A stretch of 64,000 nt of DNA from a virus (IMGVR_UViG_3300021255_000054), one strand, 5' to 3'; positions 53,795 through 63,825 are shown, counted from the first letter of the stretch. Numbers and translations: made by a program. Notes: a model not told the origin generated them from the sequence alone.

Positions 53795-53867
53795 ATTTAC
53801 AGAAGGTAAGGAAAGGAACTTATCTTCTGTAAATTATTTTTTTCATTACATAAGGAGGTAATGAGAT

Positions 53868-54212
53868 ATGGCTATTCGTGTATATAGCGACAAGACACAG
53901 CAGTTTTATAACACTGTGGAAGAAGCCAATAGGGCTGAATTTGAACTGAAAGAACAGGAAAATCGTGAGAAGATTCGTAAAGAGCGGGAAGCCGCCGAAG
54001 CAAAGGCTAAGAAGGAAAAGGAAACCGCTGAACGTAAGGTTGCTGCCGATAAGGTAGAAGCCGCACATAAGGCTATGGTAGAAGCCCAGAATGCTTATAA
54101 GAAGGAGCTCGAAGCCTTCTGTAAGAAATATGGTGCTTATCATTTTTCTTTAAATAATCTCGAAGATATTCCTCATCTTTTGGATGTTCTCAATGATGTA
54201 TTTAGTTGGTAA
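53868..54212 (+). CDS. charged coiled-coil protein
   Basis: SD AAGGAGG; E/K/A-rich. Confidence 0.8.
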   Translation: MAIRVYSDKTQQFYNTVEEANRAEFELKEQENREKIRKEREAAEAKAKKEKETAERKVAADKVEAAHKAMVEAQNAYKKELEAFCKKYGAYHFSLNNLEDIPHLLDVLNDVFSW

Positions 54213-54256: not shown

Positions 54257-54341
54257 TGCCCTGCGGTCCGTGGCGGACAGACGGTCTCTAAAACCGTGGC
54301 CTCTGAAGCAAACGAAGTTGGTTCGATTCCAACCAGGGCAG
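54257..54341 (+). tRNA. amber suppressor tRNA (anticodon CUA), probably Gln-charged
   Basis: Acceptor TGCCCTG/CAGGGCA plus G73; anticodon arm ACGGT-CTCTAAA-ACCGT; T arm GTTGG-TTCGATT-CCAAC; 19-nt variable region. Confidence 0.9.
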
Positions 54342-54632
54342 TTGCGGTATGTGCTTAATGAGTACGTACTTTGTAAAGGAAAATGTAGTTCAGCGGGATG
54401 CTGGCTTATACTAGTTGACATTTTTTTTAATACAATCTCCAGTAAGAGCAAAAAACTGCCACGGGCTGGGTGAAATGCCCCGGGTCCACCTTCCTTGCCT
54501 ACGGTGAGTGTCCGTTCAAGGCAGAAAACATGCGGTCCGGCCGGACGCGACGATGGCTAGTTTGGGGTTTTACGCCACGCTCTTTAGGCAGCGCAACCCG
54601 CTATGACGAGATCTTAGCACGCTTGCCTATAT

Positions 54633-54703: not shown

Positions 54704-55067
54704 CTAGCTGGGAAGCTCAGAACCCAGGAAACTTCTCGCCTGAAATCGCGAGCAAAGGAGAAGTAGGTAAGTAAGCGACCCAAATAACTGCTGCCGTGAG
54801 CCATAACCACGTAAGCTTATCCTAGGTGAGCAGATTTGGGTGCCAGTACTAAACACCAAAAATATATAGTGCCAAGTCAGATGCTCTTGATACAGCATCC
54901 ACCAATTCTTGCGGTGTAATAAAGAGACGTAAGGCGACACGTTATATCGTCAGCGCAAATAGGAGTTGCGAACCTACGCGCGCGAACTCTATGTTATTGA
55001 ACACCTAACGCAATTAGGCTAGTAAATGATATAGAGTTTTTTATTTTCTAAAAAGGAGGTAATTCAT

Positions 55068-56195: not shown

Positions 56196-56453
56196 ATGAT
56201 TCATAAGATGCCAACTATCAACTTGTTTGAAGCGGCAAAAGCAGTTGCGAAGGAACTTCGACTAAATCGGTTTGCAGTATTTGAATTTTTTACTGAACAT
56301 TTTTATGGTGAAGAATCTGAATCTTCTATTAAAATGGATTTTATCCCTAAAGACCTTACAGAATATGAAATTGAATTGGAATGCTTTTATAAGCTTCTAA
56401 TGAAAGAAGGCTTGAAGCCTATGGATTCATTTATTATCTTTTATGGATGTTAA
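56196..56453 (+). CDS. hypothetical protein
   Basis: Downstream of promoter 56142-56170 (TTGACC-17-TATAAT). Confidence 0.65.
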   Translation: MIHKMPTINLFEAAKAVAKELRLNRFAVFEFFTEHFYGEESESSIKMDFIPKDLTEYEIELECFYKLLMKEGLKPMDSFIIFYGC

Positions 56454-56455
56454 TT

Positions 56456-56529
56456 CGGGCACTAGCTCAGTCGGTGAGAGCAGTGGTCTTATAAACCAAA
56501 GATGCTTGGTTCAAATCCAAGGTGCCCGA
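56456..56529 (+). tRNA. tRNA-Ile(TAT)
   Basis: Cloverleaf, loop CTTATAA. Confidence 0.85.
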
Positions 56530-56532
56530 CAT

Positions 56533-56561
56533 TTGACTTATATCAAAATTTTTGATATAAT
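56533..56561 (+). promoter_or_regulatory. sigmaA promoter directly upstream of CAGCAA element 1
   Basis: TTGACT-17-TATAAT with TGn. Confidence 0.8.
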
Positions 56562-56572
56562 AAATATGAACA

Positions 56573-56681
56573 AAGGCTCCTGCAGCAAATTTTCTTTGGA
56601 CTGTAAATCCCCGTGTCATTGGTTCGATTCCAATCCCGAATAGGGTAGCTCAGCTAGGTAGAGCAGGTAATTAGGAGTCTT
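56573..56681 (+). ncRNA. CAGCAA element 1: circularly permuted tRNA-Tyr(GTA)-like RNA
   Basis: Stem AAGGCTCC/GGAGTCTT; order is anticodon loop, T arm, CCC-GAATA-GGG, D arm. Confidence 0.8.
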
Positions 56682-57002
56682 GTAACTCAAACTGCGGCAA
56701 TAAGCCGAATCCTTAGCCGTTGTGCGTGCTACTCGTATAGTAACACAATAGTCAGCGGTTAGTTGGAGACCGTAGTGCGGCAACGGTATACAAAAACGCA
56801 CCGTGTGGTAGAGATTGCCCGTTAGGTTCCTCACTACTAGCAACGATAGGGCATAAATAAAGAAGTCTCCTAACTCTAATATGCTCCTGAACAAGAGCCG
56901 GTGGATCTTACGGTGAAAACCCGTAGTAAAGAACGACAAAACTGCTCACTTGCGCAAGGGGTTTATGGTTATCCTCGCTTTGGCGAAAAACCTTATCAAT
57001 AT

Positions 57003-57073
57003 CGCACGATAGTGTAAAGGTAAAACCTCTGGCTCATAACCAGAAGATCTGGGTTCGATTCCCAGTCGTGCTA
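57003..57073 (+). tRNA. tRNA-Met(CAT), initiator-like 1:72 mismatch
   Basis: Cloverleaf, loop CTCATAA, C1/T72. Confidence 0.85.
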
Positions 57074-57498
57074 CGACGCGATGCTAGTAGCGTAAGAAAA
57101 GACTAGCCGTGGCTAAGCGCAGAATCGTATTGGCGCTAGAGTTCTTGGACGCAAGATAGCTCGCACTTCTGAATGGCCAATCAGAAGTCATTAAATTGGG
57201 CCGAAAAACAGGAAGGCTGAGGAAAATGGATTGGAAGTCCTGGGCAGCTCTTAGGGTCGCGCCCTAAACTGGAAAACCAAAGCAGCTTCATCTACTGCTC
57301 CTGTCACAATGTGTAGGCCGAATTATTTCACTCGCAAGGCGCGTGAAGCCAGCGCAAATCTGGCTGAGTGGCTCCGCGGAGATAACCGCGGCGTAAGGTA
57401 ACTGAAATGCAAACCAGCGCAGATACATGACCTGCGCAGTAGAAATTAAAGGTGCCGCGCTGATAGACCGCAAGTTCGCAATAGTCTATTATTTATAT

Positions 57499-57576
57499 CA
57501 TCTATGTAGCTCAGAGATAGTAGAGTGCTCCCGCAGTAATGGGAGAGGTCGAAGGTGCGAATCCTTTCATAGATGA
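57499..57576 (+). tRNA. atypical tRNA with 8-nt anticodon loop (GCAGTAAT)
   Basis: Good acceptor, D and T arms; CTCCC/GGGAG stem; no U33. Confidence 0.6.
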
Positions 57577-57632
57577 CTTGTGTAGACATCACACATCGGT
57601 GCCATACTGCCGAAATAATGAAGTATGGGCGC

Positions 57633-57703
57633 GCGATTATAGTGTAGTGGTAACATAGGTGCTTGCCATGCACCTGTCATGGGTTCGAATCCCATTAGTC
57701 GCT
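57633..57703 (+). tRNA. tRNA-Gly(GCC)
   Basis: Cloverleaf, loop TTGCCAT. Confidence 0.9.
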
Positions 57704-57706
57704 CTT

Positions 57707-57822
57707 TAGACATATCAGCAATCATTCTTGCTAGAGGAGCCCGTTCAGTGTTGGTTTAAATCCAACCCACCCGACCATCGGGTGGTCGCTCAATTGTTAG
57801 AAGCACGGTAAAAGTATGTCTA
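57707..57822 (+). ncRNA. CAGCAA element 2: permuted tRNA-like RNA with internal CCA
   Basis: Stem TAGACATA/TATGTCTA; T arm, CCACCCGA-CCA-TCGGGTGG, D arm. Confidence 0.78.
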
Positions 57823-57828
57823 GTTTTT

Positions 57829-57900
57829 GGCCTTATGGTATAGTGGTAATTACGTAGCCCTGTCACGGCTAAGACCGCAGTTCAATTCTGCGTAAGGTCG
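57829..57900 (+). tRNA. tRNA-Asp(GTC)
   Basis: Cloverleaf, loop CTGTCAC. Confidence 0.9.
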
Positions 57901-58258
57901 CATAGGTTGATTTTGAAGTCCTTTCCTAAATTGGATGGAGGGAACCCAAGCTAGCAAAAAACACGTCCTACAGTGGTGTGCCCGGGTTAGCACACATTAA
58001 AACTGTCGCCACGGTTAATGGTTCAAATTCTGCCGGCAATAGCGAAACAATAGAAGTCCCGCAAGGTGAAAGCGTTCCAATAGGATGTTCGGCGGCAAGT
58101 TTTTTATGGTACATAAGTCAGCCCGTTAGACTTTAAATGGCGGGACACTGTCCGACCAAGAGTTTGTATTTGTCGCAAATTATGTCGTTAAACTGTCCCC
58201 AAAAATACTCATTCACCTTAGTATTTTTGGGTTACTCATCACAAAATATTAAGGAGGA

Positions 58259-58756
58259 ATGAAAATGAGTAATCTAAAAACTAGACAAATTACAGGTATC
58301 GCTATCTTAACTGCGCTTTATTGTGTATTAAGCGCAATGATGAAGATCCCATTTATAGGTGCAATTTCTCTTGATTTGGGGTATATTGCACTTACAGTAG
58401 GATGCACGCTATTTGGCCCTTGGGCCGCTGTTATTGGTGCTGTAGGATGTGGACTTGAAAGTATTCTTTTTTCGCCATATGGCTTCAGTATCAGTTGGTT
58501 CGTAGCAAATTTAATTATCGGCCTTGGATGCGGAATCGTGTTCAAGAAAACCGAGAATATTTGGCTACGAATTGCCGCAATAGTAGGATTCGTTGCGGTA
58601 GGTATGCTTGGCGCGAAAACTGGTATTGAGTGCTACTTGTATCATATTCCATTTGCAGTTAAGATTGTAAAAAATGCAGTAGCATTTGGCGTTGATACTA
58701 TTACAATGCTGATTGGTTTAAGTATTAGTAATAGAGTAGTAAAATATTGGAAATAA
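58259..58756 (+). CDS. ECF transporter S component (substrate-binding membrane protein)
   Basis: Multiple TM helices, AxxxA in TM1, IP...LFGP..A..G pattern. Confidence 0.8.
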   Translation: MKMSNLKTRQITGIAILTALYCVLSAMMKIPFIGAISLDLGYIALTVGCTLFGPWAAVIGAVGCGLESILFSPYGFSISWFVANLIIGLGCGIVFKKTENIWLRIAAIVGFVAVGMLGAKTGIECYLYHIPFAVKIVKNAVAFGVDTITMLIGLSISNRVVKYWK

Positions 58757-58828
58757 AAATATTTGACTTAAAATTAAATTTGATATATAATTATTATATA
58801 AAAGAGAGATAATTTTTCTCTCTCAAAT

Positions 58829-58902
58829 GGCCCGGTAGCTCAGCCCAGCAGAGCGGCTGCCTGTTAAGCAGCATGTCCCAGGAGCAAAGCCTGGTCGGGC
58901 CG
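58829..58902 (+). tRNA. tRNA-Asn(GTT), atypical T loop
   Basis: Loop CTGTTAA; T loop AGCAAAG; promoter at 58763-58791. Confidence 0.8.
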
Positions 58903-59053
58903 CATCCCATCTAACGGGAAATAATTTAGGTTAGATGCTTATAGGTAAGCTATACGGGTTTCGGCGCTCGTAAGCCAATAGTGCAAGCCGCTTCGAAAGA
59001 CGTGACGGTCATTCGATACTTTTCAGCAGGGCCGGAACCTCCCTGCTGCTTAT

Positions 59054-59127
59054 GCCCGATTGGTGTAATAGGTTAGCACAGCACCCTTTCAAGGTGCAGA
59101 CGTAGGGTTCAAATCCCTCATCGGGTA
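59054..59127 (+). tRNA. tRNA-Glu(TTC)
   Basis: Cloverleaf, loop CTTTCAA. Confidence 0.9.
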
Positions 59128-59132
59128 CTATA

Positions 59133-59208
59133 TAGGCGCGAGCAGCATGATATTTATAAGAATTATTTATTTGATGAACTTCTTATTGGTTTTTGTTATT
59201 TGCGCCTA
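59133..59208 (+). ncRNA. CAGCAA element 3 (CAGCAT variant, AU-rich hairpin cargo)
   Basis: Stem TAGGCGCG/TGCGCCTA. Confidence 0.55.
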
Positions 59209-59319
59209 GCGACCGCTAACATGGATTTTGCAGAGGTAAACTACCACCGACTTATTAGGTATGTGGCACAGTGGAATGCGGTATAGAAAAAAGCAAAGTA
59301 ACCTCTGTTCCATAGCCGC

Positions 59320-59393
59320 AGACACGTCAGCAACTATCTTTTAATGCATCAAGAATTAAGCACCGGGTCGGCTCCGGGAAGATAAGCGTGTCT
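59320..59393 (+). ncRNA. CAGCAA element 4 (D-like and T-like hairpins)
   Basis: Stem AGACACG/CGTGTCT; inner TATCTT/AAGATA; CCGG-GTCGGCT-CCGG. Confidence 0.65.
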
Positions 59394-59455
59394 AGTATTT
59401 GATTTTAATTAAAATTATGTTATAATTATTATAGTAACAGGAAAGGAAGTAAGAA

Positions 59456-59668
59456 ATGCGTAATCCGAAGCGAATCAAACCTTATTGTGATGTACTTGCT
59501 ACTTTATGGCAGACTGTACCTGATCTTCGTTTAACTCAGTTTATGTATACTCTGATGAATGGTTGGAAAGAAAAACATGGTTCTGATGCTTTTTATGTAG
59601 AAGATGAAGCATTTCTTGCTTTTTGTCTTGAATATTTGAATGAAATTACTGGAGATAGTAATGAATAA
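59456..59668 (+). CDS. small phage protein (MRxPxRI...W..PDLR.Q motif)
   Basis: ORF track; promoter upstream. Confidence 0.75.
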   Translation: MRNPKRIKPYCDVLATLWQTVPDLRLTQFMYTLMNGWKEKHGSDAFYVEDEAFLAFCLEYLNEITGDSNE

Positions 59669-59885
59669 TCCGGGTAAACCTGTAGCTCAATTAAAAGGTA
59701 AAAAAATAGTACATATTTATAGTTCTGCTTACGCCGCGGCAAGACATACTGGATTGTCATATAGTCATATACAAGATACTTGTCATAATAGGCGATGTGG
59801 TGTAGGTGGTTATAAGTGGCGCTATGCAACAGAATTAGAAGCAAAATATGCTCATTTATATAATGATAATACAGAATCCACTTGA
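59661..59885 (+). CDS. stand-alone NUMOD1-like DNA-binding domain
   Basis: KPVxQ...YxSxxxAAR...I...C...GGYKWRY. Confidence 0.7.
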   Translation: MNNPGKPVAQLKGKKIVHIYSSAYAAARHTGLSYSHIQDTCHNRRCGVGGYKWRYATELEAKYAHLYNDNTEST

Positions 59886-60294
59886 TATGGGAGTGACTAG
59901 TGGTTCAAGTCCACGCAGGCCGCAGGATACAGGGTATAGAACAACGTGAACTATACTTATGCGGCAGTGCAATCGGAGCGAGCACTTGGGAGTCGTGATC
60001 TACCATTTAAATAAAAACCAAATTGAGAAACAGTGAAAAGGAGAAATTAATATGACGCCGGTGTATATTGTCCCATCACCAAGAACGATAGCTGAGTCAT
60101 GGTGTGTACTTGGAATTATGTTTCTTTTACTTGTTGGGGTAGCAGTGTATTATTTAATCGAAAAAAGAAAAATAGAAAAAATAATTAAGCATCCGAGACT
60201 TAAAAACGTAAGAACTAAGTGATAAGATAGATAGTGCGGTGGCCGGATAGGCAAGAAAATAATATGTAGGGTGCAAATCCCCACCTGTATTTAT

Positions 60295-60371
60295 CGAGCA
60301 TTGGCACAATTGGTTAGCGCACAGAGCTGATAACTCTGAGGTTCTTGGTTCAATTCCAAGATGCTCGACCA
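60295..60371 (+). tRNA. tRNA-Ile(GAT), CCA encoded
   Basis: Cloverleaf, loop CTGATAA. Confidence 0.92.
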
Positions 60372-60478
60372 CCTAGAAGCGAAACTAGGCAAATCTCGTG
60401 TGGTGAGCGAGACATTAACACACAGTTCACCAGCTGTTCCGGACAGCCAACGCAGCTATGCGACAAATAGTCACGTGT

Positions 60479-60549
60479 AGGGGAGTAAGATAATGGTAGT
60501 CGCGCGGTCCCCAAAACCGCTCGTGTTGGTTCGAATCCAGCCTCCCCTG
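60479..60549 (+). tRNA. tRNA-Trp(CCA) with C33
   Basis: Cloverleaf, loop CCCCAAA. Confidence 0.8.
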
Positions 60550-60553
60550 CTTA

Positions 60554-60615
60554 AAGACTCGTCAGCAACTTTTCAAGCATTGGACTTTTAATCTAACTAG
60601 CTATAAACGAGTCTT
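60554..60615 (+). ncRNA. CAGCAA element 5 carrying a tRNA-Lys(TTT) anticodon stem-loop
   Basis: Stem AAGACTCG/CGAGTCTT; TTGGA-CTTTTAA-TCTAA. Confidence 0.72.
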
Positions 60616-60622
60616 GTTTTAT

Positions 60623-60696
60623 GCCCTACTACCCCAATTGGCAGAGGGAACTGACTCAAAATCAGTACAGTCTGGGTTCGAATCCCAGGTTGGGCA
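60623..60696 (+). tRNA. tRNA-Leu(CAA), short variable arm
   Basis: Loop CTCAAAA. Confidence 0.88.
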
Positions 60697-60802
60697 CTAT
60701 AGTTTTGGTAGTATAAGCCATTGCGCAAATATTGCCTGCAATATTTTCGTTCTACTATATGAAATGGCGCTTATTTAGATAAAATTTGGAGGTACCTATT
60801 AT

Positions 60803-62328: not shown

Positions 62329-62665
62329 CTTACCAACGGACAAGGCTTAGGCGCATGACTACTTAGGCGATGAGGGAGTGCGTGAATAACGTGACAGTGA
62401 CCTCTAACCGAGTGGAACAGGGCGGTGGGACGCGAGTGGTTGGTAATTTATAGCAGAAGGCACGGCAGTACAGCGCCCCGAAAGGACAAAACCATTACAA
62501 TATTCTGCTTATTATATGGAACTAATCTATCCAGAGTTCCTGCGGTTCAAGGATGGGGTTTGCGGCACCTTAGACCGCTATTATATGGGTAGCATTAGGG
62601 TAGCTCCCTAATGAGATTAAGGTACTCTCCTACCGGCCATAATTATTATCAGGAGAGTGATAAAA

Positions 62666-63598
62666 ATGGAGAATACAAATTGTGGAATTTATAAAATTAC
62701 TAATAATATAAATGGTCATAGTTATATTGGTAAAAGTACGAATATATCGCACAGATGGATTGAACATAAATGTCATTCAAAAACAGATGATTGTGCTTTA
62801 TATCGAGCCATGCGTAAGTATGGAATTGAAAATTTCTCATTTGAAGTTATTTAGTATGCTTTACCAGATGAATTAGAAGAATTAGAACAATATTATATTG
62901 AATTATATAATACTTATCATAGCCGGGAAGGTTATAATGAAACTGCGGGAGGAGATGGCCGATTAAAACATGATTATAATAAAATTGTAGAATTATGGAA
63001 TCAAGGCTATCTATGTTAGGATATTGAAATTATATTAGGATGCTGTGATAAAGTAATAAATAATGCGTTACATAGTTACGGGATAACAGATGAAGAAATT
63101 TCTAAGCAAGCGCGAGCTAAAAAAGCTATTTCAATTACTGCTTATGACCCTAAAACAAAAAAGCCATTAAAAATATTTCATTCATTATATGCTATCAATA
63201 AATTCTTTAAAGATGAACACGCAGGTTCAAGAATTTTAAATTCACTTAATGAACCTTTATATCATCGACATGTAGGATTTAGATGGGCTTATACTAAAGA
63301 TGAAGATTATAAATTACCTATATTATCAGATGAAGAATTTCTTTCTCATCAAAAGAAATGTAAAATTGCTCCAATGAGTGAAGAGGCAAGAACACGCTTA
63401 AGTCAAGAACGTAGAACTGTTGAACGACCGTCTCGTGATGAACTAAAACAAATGATTCGTACTATGCCATTTACTCATATTGGAGATAAATATAATTTAT
63501 GTGATAATAGTATTAGAAAATGGTGTATAGCTTATAATTTACCGAAAACAAAAAAAGAAATTAACAAATATACAGACGAAGAATGGGAGAAGATTTAA
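62666..63598 (+). CDS. free-standing GIY-YIG homing endonuclease (2 TAG)
   Basis: GIYKITN..YIGKS..RW.EH; GYN.T.GG; track ORFs 62657 and 63374 in frame. Confidence 0.88.
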
Positions 63599-63608
63599 TC
63601 TCCCTTAC

Positions 63609-63695
63609 GCCAGAGTATAGGGAATCAGCAAACCCACCGCACTGTAAATGCGGCGCTCTTAAGCATAGCTGGGGCGGCACCAGCCTCTGGCACCA
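63609..63695 (+). tRNA. tRNA-Tyr(GTA), atypical D/T loops, CCA encoded
   Basis: CCGCA-CTGTAAA-TGCGG; long variable arm. Confidence 0.8.
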
Positions 63696-63825
63696 AGTCC
63701 TGGGATCTCACAATGCAGGGACTATAATGAACAAGCGTGAGCGTTTGCACCGATGATGAAAGGGCCAGGCGATTATACTTTGAAGCCTGTTAGATAGGTG
63801 CTGCAGAGCCTAACAAAGTATGTAT

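What the first reader, a model, noticed from the sequence alone, without database searches (positions are those of the whole stretch)
60554..60615. Minimal element presenting only a tRNA-Lys(UUU) anticodon stem-loop
Seen: TTGGA-CTTTTAA-TCTAA, the canonical Lys anticodon loop, inside the CAGCAA carrier. No full tRNA-Lys occurs in this window. Established: tRNA-Lys is the target of the PrrC and PARIS (AriB) anticodon nucleases. Inference: an anticodon decoy.
Basis: partly seen in the sequence, partly recalled or inferred. Interest (0 to 1): 0.7.

Follow-up and report, generated by a model that had tools for sequence, protein, structure and literature searches.

The report
Phage Y-like RNA with anticodon arm
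This is a real 62-base small-RNA gene wedged between two phage tRNA genes: a conserved "handle" that travels with the phage's Ro60-like ring protein holds out a copy of a lysine-tRNA anticodon arm, so it is most likely a new kind of Y RNA, while its proposed role as a decoy for tRNA-cutting defence enzymes stays plausible but untested.

Summary
Window 60554-60615 folds into a 9-bp terminal stem, a 5'-side CAGCAA bulge and a 5-bp/7-nt hairpin with the loop CUUUUAA. It lies 3 nt after tRNA-Trp and 7 nt before tRNA-Leu. Fourteen positional orthologs keep this fold (97.9% of cells paired, 10 pairs with compensatory changes).

It is the smallest of seven "CAGCAA-handle" RNAs in this 189.6-kb TAG-recoded phage. 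I counted 255 in related and unrelated phage loci, against 11 on the opposite strand.

No Pfam TROVE gene is present. The phage does encode a DUF2828/DUF7788 protein whose confident model matches only Ro60 structures. It sits among a kinase, a phosphoesterase and an RlaP nucleotidyltransferase. In 80 diverse phage loci the handles sit on that gene's strand and pile up just upstream of it. Four relatives without the gene have no convincing handle.

Best reading: a Y-like RNA for a Ro60-like protein that displays an anticodon-arm mimic.

Anticodon-like loops are strongly enriched in the family (36/192 clusters against 1.4 expected). The triplet switches between orthologs (UUU, GUU, GAU, GUA), and the phage has its own tRNA-Lys(UUU). 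A Lys-specific PrrC/PARIS decoy is therefore not shown.

The scan had already noted this handle family in other phage genomes. I found it neither in Rfam nor in the papers I searched.

The parts
60554..60562 (+). 5' strand of the 9-bp terminal stem (AAGACUCGU); the G-R-C core is conserved across the family
   Evidence: All 9 pairs hold in 14 orthologs and 3 of them covary. Family consensus A-G-R-C-NNN.
60563..60568 (+). CAGCAA, invariant single-stranded motif on the 5' side just inside the terminal stem (the 'handle' bulge)
   Evidence: Invariant in alignment A1. It was used as the anchor of the scans, and position 6 is A in 89% of 192 clusters.
60569..60575 (+). U-rich linker (CUUUUCA)
   Evidence: The family is U/A-rich at these positions.
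60576..60578 (+). AGC, 5' strand of a 3-bp connector helix pairing with GCU 60600-60602
   Evidence: All three pairs covary (AGC/GCU, UGU/ACA, AGU/GCU, AUC/GAU) and are 100% paired.
60580..60596 (+). Anticodon-arm mimic: stem UUGGA/UCUAA and 7-nt loop CUUUUAA (60585-60591), the tRNA-Lys(UUU) loop
   Evidence: Four of 5 stem pairs covary. The loop frame Y-U-NNN-A-A is kept while NNN varies. The loop is identical to that of the phage tRNA-Lys(UUU).
60600..60602 (+). GCU, 3' strand of the connector helix
60603..60606 (+). AUAA, A-rich 3'-side strand of the internal loop opposite CAGCAA
   Evidence: A53/A54 invariant in A1. The family is A-rich just before the 3' strand.
60607..60615 (+). 3' strand of the terminal stem (ACGAGUCUU), with the conserved G-Y-C-U
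60616..60622 (+). Trailer GUUUUAU; the G two bases after GYCU is G in 89% of family clusters; it runs straight into tRNA-Leu
60479..60550 (+). tRNA-Trp(CCA), ending 3 nt before the element; its 3' processing would make the element's 5' end
   Evidence: In the family, 86 of 255 handles start within 10 nt of a tRNA 3' end.
60623..60697 (+). tRNA-Leu(CAA), starting 7 nt after the element; RNase P cleavage would make the element's 3' end
   Evidence: In the family, 81 of 255 handles end within 12 nt of a tRNA start.
56573..56681 (+). Sibling handle RNA carrying a permuted tRNA-like body (GUA anticodon-like hairpin, T arm, closed 3-bp acceptor, D arm)
   Evidence: Rfam YrlA matches the tRNA-like part only, at 36.5 bits (gathering score 69).
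57707..57822 (+). Sibling handle RNA with a permuted tRNA-like body and a closed 7-bp acceptor stem
59133..59208 (+). Sibling handle RNA (CAGCAU variant) with AU-rich hairpin cargo
59320..59393 (+). Sibling handle RNA with two-hairpin cargo

Best explanation
Window 60554-60615 is a gene for a small non-coding RNA of about 62-72 nt, a minimal member of a large phage family of 'CAGCAA-handle' RNAs. It is transcribed with the tRNA array and probably cut out by the enzymes that trim the flanking tRNA-Trp and tRNA-Leu. It folds into two modules. The first is a handle: a terminal stem with conserved G-R-C/G-Y-C-U pairs and a 5'-side CAGCAA bulge. The second is a cargo: a connector helix topped by an anticodon stem-loop that copies the tRNA-Lys(UUU) loop. 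The handle most likely binds the phage's Ro60-fold protein (DUF2828 + vWA/DUF7788, genome 183728-185239), much as the stem-plus-bulge of Y RNAs binds Ro60. The cargo is then displayed on that ring to engage something that reads anticodon loops: a host anticodon nuclease, a modification enzyme, or the phage's own RNA-repair enzymes. Shown here: the RNA structure and its conservation, the family, the Ro60 fold of the protein as a prediction, and the genomic linkage. Inferred: expression and processing, RNA-protein binding, and what the displayed arm does.
For: 1. Structure under selection. In 14 positional orthologs 97.9% of cells pair and 10 pairs carry compensatory changes. The handle is invariant, and slid controls reach at most 44%.
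2. Family. There are 7 copies in this genome against 0.64 expected. In the loci studied there are 255 against 11 on the opposite strand, in 192 sequence clusters. G.U pairs occur in the stems, which argues for an RNA-level fold on the + strand.
3. No known RNA family explains it. At E<=10 no Rfam family matches E4. YrlA matches only the tRNA-like bodies of two siblings, below threshold.
4. Partner protein. The genome has no Pfam TROVE gene but has a DUF2828/DUF7788 gene. Its AlphaFold model (pLDDT 93.3, pTM 0.93) has Ro60, Rsr or TROVE structures as its 12 best PDB matches, including a Thermus phage Ro60 (E 7e-9 to 5e-6, TM about 0.42-0.57 over the whole length). The MIDAS residues are invariant.
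5. Linkage. In 80 diverse phage loci fetched through that protein (39-89% identity), handles number 134 on the gene's strand and 18 on the other. They occur in 58 of 80 loci and concentrate in the 2 kb upstream of the gene: 52 of the 114 handles counted with the stricter 7-bp scan lie there, and 21 loci have one within 1 kb. Among close relatives, genomes with the gene hold 0-6 strict handles (four of the five have 3-6). Four genomes without it hold none that is convincing.
6. Precedent. Y RNAs are encoded next to Ro60 genes and mimic tRNA (PMC4201824). The Thermus phage phiLo Yrl RNAs have a 5'-3' stem flanking a bulge with a short motif, lie upstream of the phage Ro60 gene and bind that protein (PMC12135203).
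7. Context. The Ro60-like gene sits between an AAA_33 kinase, a metallophosphoesterase and an RlaP nucleotidyltransferase. An Rnl2-type RNA ligase lies across the genome end. Published comparative analyses predict that such enzymes act together in phage RNA and tRNA repair (PMC7824862).
8. Cargo. Anticodon-arm hairpins are about 25-fold enriched in the family.
Against: No expression or binding data exist. The pairing of handle and protein rests on genomic association and analogy. In this genome the nearest handle is about 4.6 kb, and this element about 12 kb, upstream of the Ro60-like gene, and no handle lies directly in front of it. The motif CAGCAA differs from the GNCGAA/CGAA motif of known bacterial and phage Y RNAs. 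The protein is not detected by Pfam TROVE, and fold similarity is moderate (TM about 0.55). One relative with the gene (G017) has at most one handle. The association tests share ecosystems and partly share ancestry, so they are not fully independent. The displayed triplet is not conserved, so a specific target cannot be named.
Confidence: 0.6

Rival explanations
1. Stand-alone anticodon decoy. The free hairpin mimics tRNA-Lys(UUU) and soaks up or competitively inhibits a host anticodon nuclease such as PrrC or PARIS AriB, with no protein partner needed.
For: The loop is exactly CUUUUAA, as in the phage's tRNA-Lys(UUU). Anticodon-like loops are strongly enriched in the family. CUUUUAA is the commonest such loop, in 7 clusters. 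The phage carries an RNA-repair gene set, which suggests that tRNA cleavage is a pressure it faces (PMC7824862).
Against: Orthologs at the same site carry GUU, GAU or GUA instead of UUU on an otherwise nearly identical backbone, so a Lys-specific role is not conserved. The invariant part is the handle, not the loop, which a free decoy would not need. The phage already supplies a full tRNA-Lys(UUU) and a tRNA-Lys(CUU). From general knowledge, not tested here: PrrC-type nucleases respond to wobble-base modification and to tRNA features beyond a bare 17-nt arm. No cleavage or competition data exist.
Confidence: 0.15
2. Processing or stability punctuation. The element is a structured spacer that helps RNase P, RNase Z or exonucleases separate neighbouring tRNAs, or protects their ends, and has no trans-acting role.
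For: It fills nearly the whole 72-nt gap between two tRNAs. In the family, 134 of 255 handles abut a tRNA within 30 nt on at least one side. A U-rich tract follows the stem.
Against: Nearly half of the family is not next to a tRNA. Many copies lie directly upstream of the Ro60-like gene instead. An invariant 6-nt single-stranded motif and a maintained anticodon-like hairpin with covarying pairs are more than a spacer needs. One sibling sits just downstream of a promoter-like TTGACT...TATAAT sequence that I read by eye in the sequence, so it may be transcribed on its own. Most tRNA-tRNA junctions in this array have no such element.
Confidence: 0.1
3. Selfish tRNA-derived repeat. This would be a miniature mobile element with terminal inverted repeats (AGRC...GYCU) that spreads through tRNA arrays and picks up tRNA fragments, without a function for the phage.
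For: There are many copies per genome with interchangeable cargo and conserved termini. The order of genes and elements differs between relatives.
Against: There is a strict strand bias relative to transcription (255 against 11). Stems hold G.U pairs and covary rather than keeping a transposase-binding sequence. Positional orthologs are kept between tRNA-Trp and tRNA-Leu in several sequence types. The flanks I read show no target-site duplication. The elements are linked to one particular gene.
Confidence: 0.07

Closest known systems
YrlA/YrlB-type bacterial and mycobacteriophage Y RNAs with Rsr/Ro60 (Rfam RF02553; Chen et al. 2014, PMC4201824)
   Same: A small RNA whose 5' and 3' ends form a stem, followed by a short conserved single-stranded motif on the 5' strand. 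A second module mimics tRNA. The genes are linked to that of a Ro60-type ring protein. Two siblings of this element match the tRNA-like part of the YrlA model.
   Different: The motif is CAGCAA, not GNCGAA(N)G. The protein is DUF2828/DUF7788, which Pfam TROVE does not see. This copy has no T arm, D arm or acceptor hairpin, only an anticodon arm, a part that YrlA lacks. Scores are far below the Rfam threshold, and E4 gives no match at all.
Yrl1/Yrl2 RNAs of Thermus phage phiLo with phage Ro60 (PMC12135203; PDB 9KOP, 9L5Y)
   Same: Phage-encoded small RNAs with a 5'-3' stem that flanks a bulge holding a short motif. They lie upstream of the phage's Ro60 gene and bind that protein in experiments. 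The phiLo Ro60 is among the structural matches of the protein studied here.
   Different: They have a CGAA motif and a canonical TROVE protein. That paper reports no tRNA-derived cargo and no multi-copy family spread through a tRNA array.
Class I RNAs of dictyostelid amoebae (Rfam RF01414; PMC7919456; search pattern GTTGRCCTTACAGCAA...GTCAACTG in PMC5054030)
   Same: RNAs of about 60 nt with a short terminal stem that covaries. A conserved motif ending in (U)UACAGCAA follows the 5' strand directly, the interior is variable, and a conserved U-G follows the 3' strand. Many phage copies read UUACAGCAA.
   Different: They are eukaryotic and are reported to bind an RRM protein. The Rfam model gives no match to this element or to the two siblings tested at E<=10. 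The conserved G-R-C sits at the outer end of the phage stem but at the inner end of the amoebal one. E4 itself reads CGUCAGCAA. Homology is untested.
tRNA-Lys(UUU) anticodon arm, substrate of anticodon nucleases (PrrC, PARIS AriB; from general knowledge), and phage tRNAs that replace cleaved host tRNAs
   Same: The 7-nt loop CUUUUAA and 13 contiguous bases are identical to the phage's own tRNA-Lys(UUU) arm.
   Different: There is no D arm, T arm or acceptor stem, so it cannot be charged or decode. The triplet is not conserved in orthologs.

Membership tests
CAGCAA-handle phage RNAs (unnamed family defined in this scan) | Terminal stem of 7-9 bp with conserved G-R-C / G-Y-C-U | tested here: met
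   AAGACUCGU/ACGAGUCUU. Consensus from 192 clusters. Covariation.
CAGCAA-handle phage RNAs (unnamed family defined in this scan) | CAGCA(A) 0-2 nt after the 5' strand, an A-rich strand opposite, and W-G after the 3' strand | tested here: met
   CAGCAA at 60563-60568 after one U, AUAA at 60603-60606, and U-G at 60615-60616.
CAGCAA-handle phage RNAs (unnamed family defined in this scan) | Same strand as the tRNA array, in a phage that encodes a DUF2828 Ro60-like protein | tested here: met
   Family-wide linkage.
YrlA (Rfam RF02553) | Covariance-model score at or above the gathering score (69 bits) | tested here: not met
   E4 has no match at E<=10. Siblings score 36.5 and 16.3 bits.
YrlA (Rfam RF02553) | tRNA-like domain with T arm, D arm and a closed acceptor-like hairpin | tested here: not met
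   E4 holds only an anticodon-type hairpin. The domain is present in siblings at 56573 and 57707.
YrlA (Rfam RF02553) | GNCGAA(N)G motif near the 5' end (proposed Rsr-binding site) | tested here: not met
   The sequence reads CGUCAGCAAC. Motif as given in PMC4201824.
YrlA (Rfam RF02553) | Encoded beside a TROVE-domain Ro60/Rsr gene | tested here: not met
   The genome has no Pfam TROVE match. A Ro60-fold DUF2828 gene lies about 12 kb downstream.
Y RNA in the broad sense (partner RNA of a Ro60-type protein) | Binds a Ro60-type ring protein through a stem-plus-bulge module | not testable with these tools
   Only genomic linkage and the predicted Ro60 fold are available. No RNA-protein prediction or assay was on hand.
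tRNA-Lys | Complete cloverleaf recognised by tRNA finders | tested here: not met
   ARAGORN and the Rfam tRNA model find nothing at 60554-60615.
Dictyostelid Class I RNA (Rfam RF01414) | Match to the covariance model | tested here: not met
   No RF01414 match at E<=10 over 56400-60750, or on the two siblings outside the window.
Dictyostelid Class I RNA (Rfam RF01414) | Short terminal stem followed by an 11-nt motif ending in UUACAGCAA; RNA of about 60 nt | tested here: inconclusive
   Stem, size and CAGCAA are present. E4 reads CGUCAGCAA, whereas many family members read UUACAGCAA. Pattern from PMC5054030.
Self-cleaving ribozymes (hammerhead, twister-sister, hatchet, pistol, HDV-like) | Match to the family model or conserved catalytic core | tested here: not met
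   No Rfam match on E4. A minus-strand CUGACGA is not kept in siblings. The 16-bit twister-sister match on sibling E2 falls on its T-arm/acceptor-type hairpins and is half the gathering score.

The most novel reading that the evidence does not exclude
The Ro60-like protein and its handle RNAs form a modular display system. Each RNA mounts a different tRNA part on the ring, here a bare anticodon arm, to bait, sense or tether enzymes that attack or mend tRNA anticodon loops. The rapid switching of the displayed triplet between orthologs (UUU, GUU, GAU, GUA) would then record an arms race with host anticodon nucleases. A further possibility is that the dictyostelid Class I RNAs are the eukaryotic branch of the same handle family.
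Probability: 0.2. Interest if true: 0.85.

Novelty: new variant of a known kind. Interest (0 to 1): 0.65.

Why it matters
Ro60 and its Y RNAs are a long-studied but functionally murky particle, and the purpose of tRNA mimicry in bacterial Y RNAs is an open question. This phage family has hundreds of copies of one short handle. The cargo is swapped between whole permuted tRNAs, tRNA halves and, as here, a bare anticodon arm. The handle is linked to a protein family (DUF2828) on which I found no functional study in the papers searched. Its confident model matches Ro60 structures, and it lies next to enzymes of families predicted to act in RNA repair. The minimal copy is the simplest test object. 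A 62-nt RNA with two separable modules would allow direct tests of what the handle binds and what an anticodon arm displayed on a Ro-type ring does. One such test is whether it interferes with anticodon nucleases. It would also give DUF2828 a function and add an RNA family that is missing from Rfam.

Tried and rejected
1. Hammerhead on the minus strand. E4's reverse complement contains CUGACGA, but no GAAA or stem arrangement fits, and the siblings read CUGAUAU, CUGACGU and the like. Rejected.
2. Other self-cleaving ribozymes or any known RNA family. An Rfam scan at E<=10 over 56400-60750 gives nothing on E4. The twister-sister match on sibling E2 scores 16 bits against a gathering score of 34 and falls on its T-arm/acceptor-type hairpins.
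3. A true circularly permuted tRNA gene that is processed into a decoding tRNA. E4 has no T arm, D arm or acceptor stem. In siblings the loops closing the acceptor stem are short and not conserved: ACCAU here, ACUGA, AUUAA or AACAU in relatives. Many 'anticodon' hairpins there have 5-nt loops. Rejected.
4. A canonical Ro60 gene. Pfam TROVE is absent from the complete genome.
5. Dictyostelid Class I membership. RF01414 gives no match.
6. A handle directly in front of the DUF2828 gene in this genome. None is there, only a promoter-like site and a different small hairpin.
7. The single-sequence AlphaFold model of the protein was useless (pLDDT 41). A sequence search of the PDB found nothing relevant. 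A 126-sequence alignment was needed.
8. BLAST against GenBank phages matched tRNAs only.
9. A full-text search for DUF2828 found no functional study.
10. Enrichment for 'nuclease-targeted' anticodons. I did not compute a p-value, because the target set cannot be fixed beforehand without bias. Only the loop tally is reported.
11. Complex prediction was not used, because it does not take RNA chains.

Full report
WHAT IS THERE

The window is part of a complete 189,572-bp phage genome with direct terminal repeats (window = genome 111290-175289). The phage reads TAG as sense: it has in-frame TAGs and a tRNA with anticodon CUA at 54257-54341. From 54.2 kb to the window end runs a same-strand array of tRNA genes, small ORFs and structured non-coding stretches.

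The finding lies in the 72-nt gap between tRNA-Trp (60479-60550) and tRNA-Leu(CAA) (60623-60697).
- AAGACUCGU (60554-60562) pairs with ACGAGUCUU (60607-60615).
- CAGCAA follows the 5' strand (60563-60568).
- UUGGA-CUUUUAA-UCUAA forms a 5-bp/7-nt hairpin (60580-60596).

RNAfold gives this structure (-11.8 kcal/mol, z = -2.2). That score alone is unremarkable.

IS IT MORE THAN CHANCE?

Yes. A structure-aware scan looked for AGRC, then 3-6 nt, then CAGCA, with a 7-bp complementary closing strand. It finds seven convincing elements in the genome, all on the tRNA strand: window 56574, 57708, 59134, 59320 and 60555, plus genome 178877 and 178975. The eighth element it listed is a CAGCAC site in coding sequence. 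No hit lies on the other strand, and shuffles give 0.64.

Through a neighbouring protein I fetched 54 related IMG/VR loci (76-91% protein identity). The same strict scan gives 121 hits on the + strand against 1 on the minus strand in 907 kb.

Fourteen positional orthologs of this very element were aligned. Most have the same flanks: the tRNA-Trp end ...gcuuaaa and the tRNA-Leu start uuguuuuaugc. They fall into several sequence types.

The proposed structure has a 9-bp terminal stem, a 3-bp connector and a 5-bp arm. It is paired in 97.9% of cells, and 10 of 17 pairs carry changes on both sides. No shuffle reaches these values, and sliding the partners drops pairing to 20-44%. Stems contain G.U pairs, which would be C.A mismatches on the other strand, so the fold is an RNA-level, + strand feature.

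THE FAMILY

The shared part is a 'handle'. From 192 sequence clusters the consensus is 5'-A-G-R-C-NNN-(U)A-CAGCAA...(A)A-NNN-G-Y-C-U-W-G-3'. The three NNN pairs vary freely while keeping complementarity.

The enclosed cargo differs between copies:
- Forty-five of the distinct hits in the first set of related loci are 110-120 nt. Most carry a permuted tRNA-like body: an anticodon-like hairpin, variable region, T arm, closed acceptor hairpin and D arm.
- Some hold a tRNA body in normal order.
- Many, like this one, are about 60 nt with a single hairpin.

Rfam holds no family for the handle. At E<=10 nothing matches E4. YrlA (Y RNA-like) matches only the tRNA-like bodies of two siblings, at 36.5 and 16.3 bits against a gathering score of 69.

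About half of all handles abut a tRNA. Of 255, 86 start within 10 nt of a tRNA 3' end and 81 end within 12 nt of a tRNA start. This suggests release by the tRNA-processing enzymes. The only strong promoter-like site nearby is at 59399-59426, and no terminator-like site lies between it and E4 except one at 60269-60286. Co-transcription with the array is therefore plausible but not shown.

THE LIKELY PARTNER

Before looking at earlier notes I already suspected a Y-RNA-like layout, because of the YrlA match, but Pfam TROVE is absent from the genome. Earlier notes of this scan, made on other phages, pointed to DUF2828. I tested that lead here.

The genome encodes a 503-aa DUF2828 + DUF7788 protein (genome 183728-185239). 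Its sequence finds no solved structure, and a single-sequence model failed. With a 126-sequence alignment of 36-51% identical representatives the model is confident (pLDDT 93.3, pTM 0.93).

Its twelve best PDB matches are all Ro60-type:
- Xenopus and human Ro60.
- Deinococcus Rsr.
- The Ro60 of Thermus phage phiLo.

These have E from 7e-9 to 5e-6 and TM about 0.42-0.57 over the full length. Isolated vWA domains follow. The MIDAS residues D-x-S-x-S...T...D are invariant. The phage therefore has a divergent protein with the Ro60 fold.

Its neighbours are an AAA_33/KTI12-type kinase, a metallophosphoesterase, an RlaP nucleotidyltransferase and DUF5662. An Rnl2-type RNA ligase lies just across the genome end. 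There is no RtcB. For PF09511 (T4 Rnl1) the search rang in no control genome, so that answer is uninformative. Comparative work on jumbo phages predicts that kinases, phosphoesterases, RlaP and RNA ligases act together in repairing cleaved RNA and tRNA, and notes Ro/TROVE with a tRNA-like partner in some of them (PMC7824862).

LINKAGE, TESTED HERE

(a) Diverse phages. I fetched 80 phage loci through the DUF2828 alignment (39-89% identity, many different metagenomes). Handles number 134 on the gene's strand and 18 on the other. With the stricter 7-bp scan, 58 of 80 loci have at least one. The handles pile up just upstream of the gene: 31 in the first kb and 21 in the second, against 11 in the whole 10 kb downstream. 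In 21 loci a handle ends within 1 kb of the start codon.

(b) Close relatives. Of 24 long records, 19 have DUF2828. Whole-genome scans give these counts of strict handles:
- Five genomes with the gene: 6, 6, 5, 3 and 0-1.
- Four genomes without it: none convincing.

The few regex or covariance-model hits in the genomes without the gene lack the motif, lie on the wrong strand, or look like coding sequence.

This mirrors known biology. Y RNAs are encoded next to Ro60 genes and mimic tRNA (PMC4201824). In Thermus phage phiLo two RNAs with a 5'-3' stem flanking a CGAA-bearing bulge lie upstream of the phage Ro60 gene and bind it in vitro (PMC12135203).

In the present genome, however, the handles are 4.6-17 kb upstream of the gene, and none lies directly in front of it.

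THE ANTICODON-LOOP QUESTION

At the orthologous site the loops are:

| Loop | Sequences | Triplet |
|---|---|---|
| CUUUUAA | 7 | UUU |
| CUGUUAA | 3 | GUU |
| UUGUUAA | 2 | GUU |
| CUGAUAA | 1 | GAU |
| CUGUAAA | 1 | GUA |
| CAGUAAA | 1 | GUA |

The frame Y-U-NNN-A-A and the stem are kept, while the triplet changes between UUU, GUU, GAU and GUA, often on otherwise near-identical backbones.

Family-wide there are 255 handles in 192 clusters. Hairpins of at least 4 bp closing a CU-NNN-AA loop occur in 36 clusters, against 1.4 (max 6) in dinucleotide shuffles. YU-NNN-RN loops occur in 74 clusters against 18.

The commonest loops copy canonical tRNA loops:
- Lys CUUUUAA: 7 clusters.
- Ile CUGAUAA and UUGAUAA: 6 + 3.
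- Asn CUGUUAA: 5.
- Phe (GAA): 4.
- Cys (GCA): 3.
- Tyr (GUA): 2.
- Thr (GGU): 2.

So the loops are genuinely anticodon-like. They are not Lys-specific, though, and the set is broad and A/U-rich, as expected in AT-rich phages.

Because a large share of anticodons is the target of some described nuclease, I did not attempt an enrichment statistic for 'targeted' anticodons. Any such set would be chosen after seeing the data.

The phage also has a full tRNA-Lys(UUU) and a tRNA-Lys(CUU) just beyond the window. The arm of E4 shares 13 contiguous bases with the former.

MECHANISM

The most likely sequence of events is:
1. The element is transcribed with the array and freed by 3' processing of tRNA-Trp and 5' processing of tRNA-Leu (inferred).
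2. It folds into a handle plus a displayed arm (shown by covariation).
3. The handle binds the Ro60-fold protein (inferred from linkage and from the stem-plus-bulge precedent).
4. The arm recruits, baits or reports on a factor that reads anticodon loops, within an RNA-repair setting (inferred).

I put about 0.9 on 'a real structured RNA gene of this family', about 0.6 on 'partner of the Ro60-like protein', and about 0.2 on a bait or decoy job for the arm.

RIVALS

Three other readings are scored in the Rival explanations section: a free decoy, a processing spacer and a selfish repeat. The strongest points against them are the invariance of the handle compared with the variability of the loop, the copies that sit next to no tRNA but next to the Ro-like gene, and the strand bias with covarying, G.U-containing stems.

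COMPARISON WITH KNOWN KINDS

It works like a Y RNA but is not a member of YrlA. The model score, the GNCGAA motif, the tRNA-like T/D domain and the TROVE neighbour were each tested and not met.

The handle also resembles dictyostelid Class I RNAs. The published search pattern is GTTGRCCTTACAGCAA...GTCAACTG (PMC5054030). Those RNAs are about 60 nt, have a covarying terminal stem and have a variable interior (PMC7919456). Many phage copies read UUACAGCAA. The Rfam model for Class I RNAs does not match, however, and homology is open.

NOVELTY

I rate it a new variant of a known kind: a Y-like RNA family with a different motif, a divergent Ro60-like partner and modular tRNA-part cargo. It is absent from Rfam 15 and from the papers I could search.

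The scan itself has met the family before in several other phage genomes. This report adds the minimal, anticodon-arm-only member, its ortholog series, and independent tests of the protein fold and the linkage.

Noticed in passing
window 54257-54490: An amber-suppressor-type tRNA (anticodon CUA; ARAGORN calls it Pyl) is followed within 5 nt by a full-length match to Rfam cow-rumen-3 RNA (RF03083, 100.6 bits). A cow-rumen-4 RNA (RF02948, 63.7 bits) lies at 53797-53864 in the leader of the ORF that starts at 53868.
   Followed up: no
L062:3976-4096 (genome 178975-179095, outside the window): A handle RNA encloses a normal-order tRNA body that passes the Rfam tRNA threshold (43.1 bits). Its acceptor stem is mismatched and its anticodon loop UUUUAGA would read UAA. 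It stands in tandem with another handle RNA at genome 178877-178967.
   Followed up: partly
L062:7166-12145 (genome 182165-187144) and genome 1210-1746: Candidate RNA-repair gene set around the Ro60-like gene: AAA_33/KTI12-type kinase, metallophosphoesterase, a 129-aa ORF, DUF2828/DUF7788, RlaP nucleotidyltransferase, a 143-aa ORF and DUF5662. An Rnl2-type RNA ligase lies just past the terminal repeat.
   Followed up: partly
window 57707-57822: In this sibling the loop that closes the acceptor stem reads A-CCA-U, as if a mature 3' CCA end were joined to the 5' end. In relatives the same loop reads ACUGA, AUUAA or AACAU, so the CCA looks incidental.
   Followed up: partly
window 62330-63820: A GIY-YIG-type ORF (62657-63598, with two in-frame TAG codons) lies between GC-rich structured stretches, between tRNA-Ala and tRNA-Leu(UAG). 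It looks like an intron or a homing-endonuclease insertion, but no Rfam intron family matched at gathering score.
   Followed up: no
window 57500-57575: Rfam calls a tRNA here (43.1 bits) that ARAGORN does not report. Its anticodon region looks irregular.
   Followed up: no
window 54705-55020, 56690-57000, 57075-57490, 57905-58200, 58905-59050, 59217-59319, 59886-60050, 60372-60478: Several GC-richer stretches without ORFs lie between tRNAs and match no Rfam family. They may hold further uncatalogued structured RNAs.
   Followed up: no
window 58259-58756: A 165-aa multi-pass membrane protein without in-frame TAG is encoded inside the tRNA array. No family search was run on it.
   Followed up: no
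family-wide: The handle consensus ...UUACAGCAA after a short terminal stem, with U-G after the 3' strand, resembles the published search pattern for Dictyostelium Class I RNAs (GTTGRCCTTACAGCAA...GTCAACTG). Whether dictyostelids also have a DUF2828 protein was not checked.
   Followed up: partly
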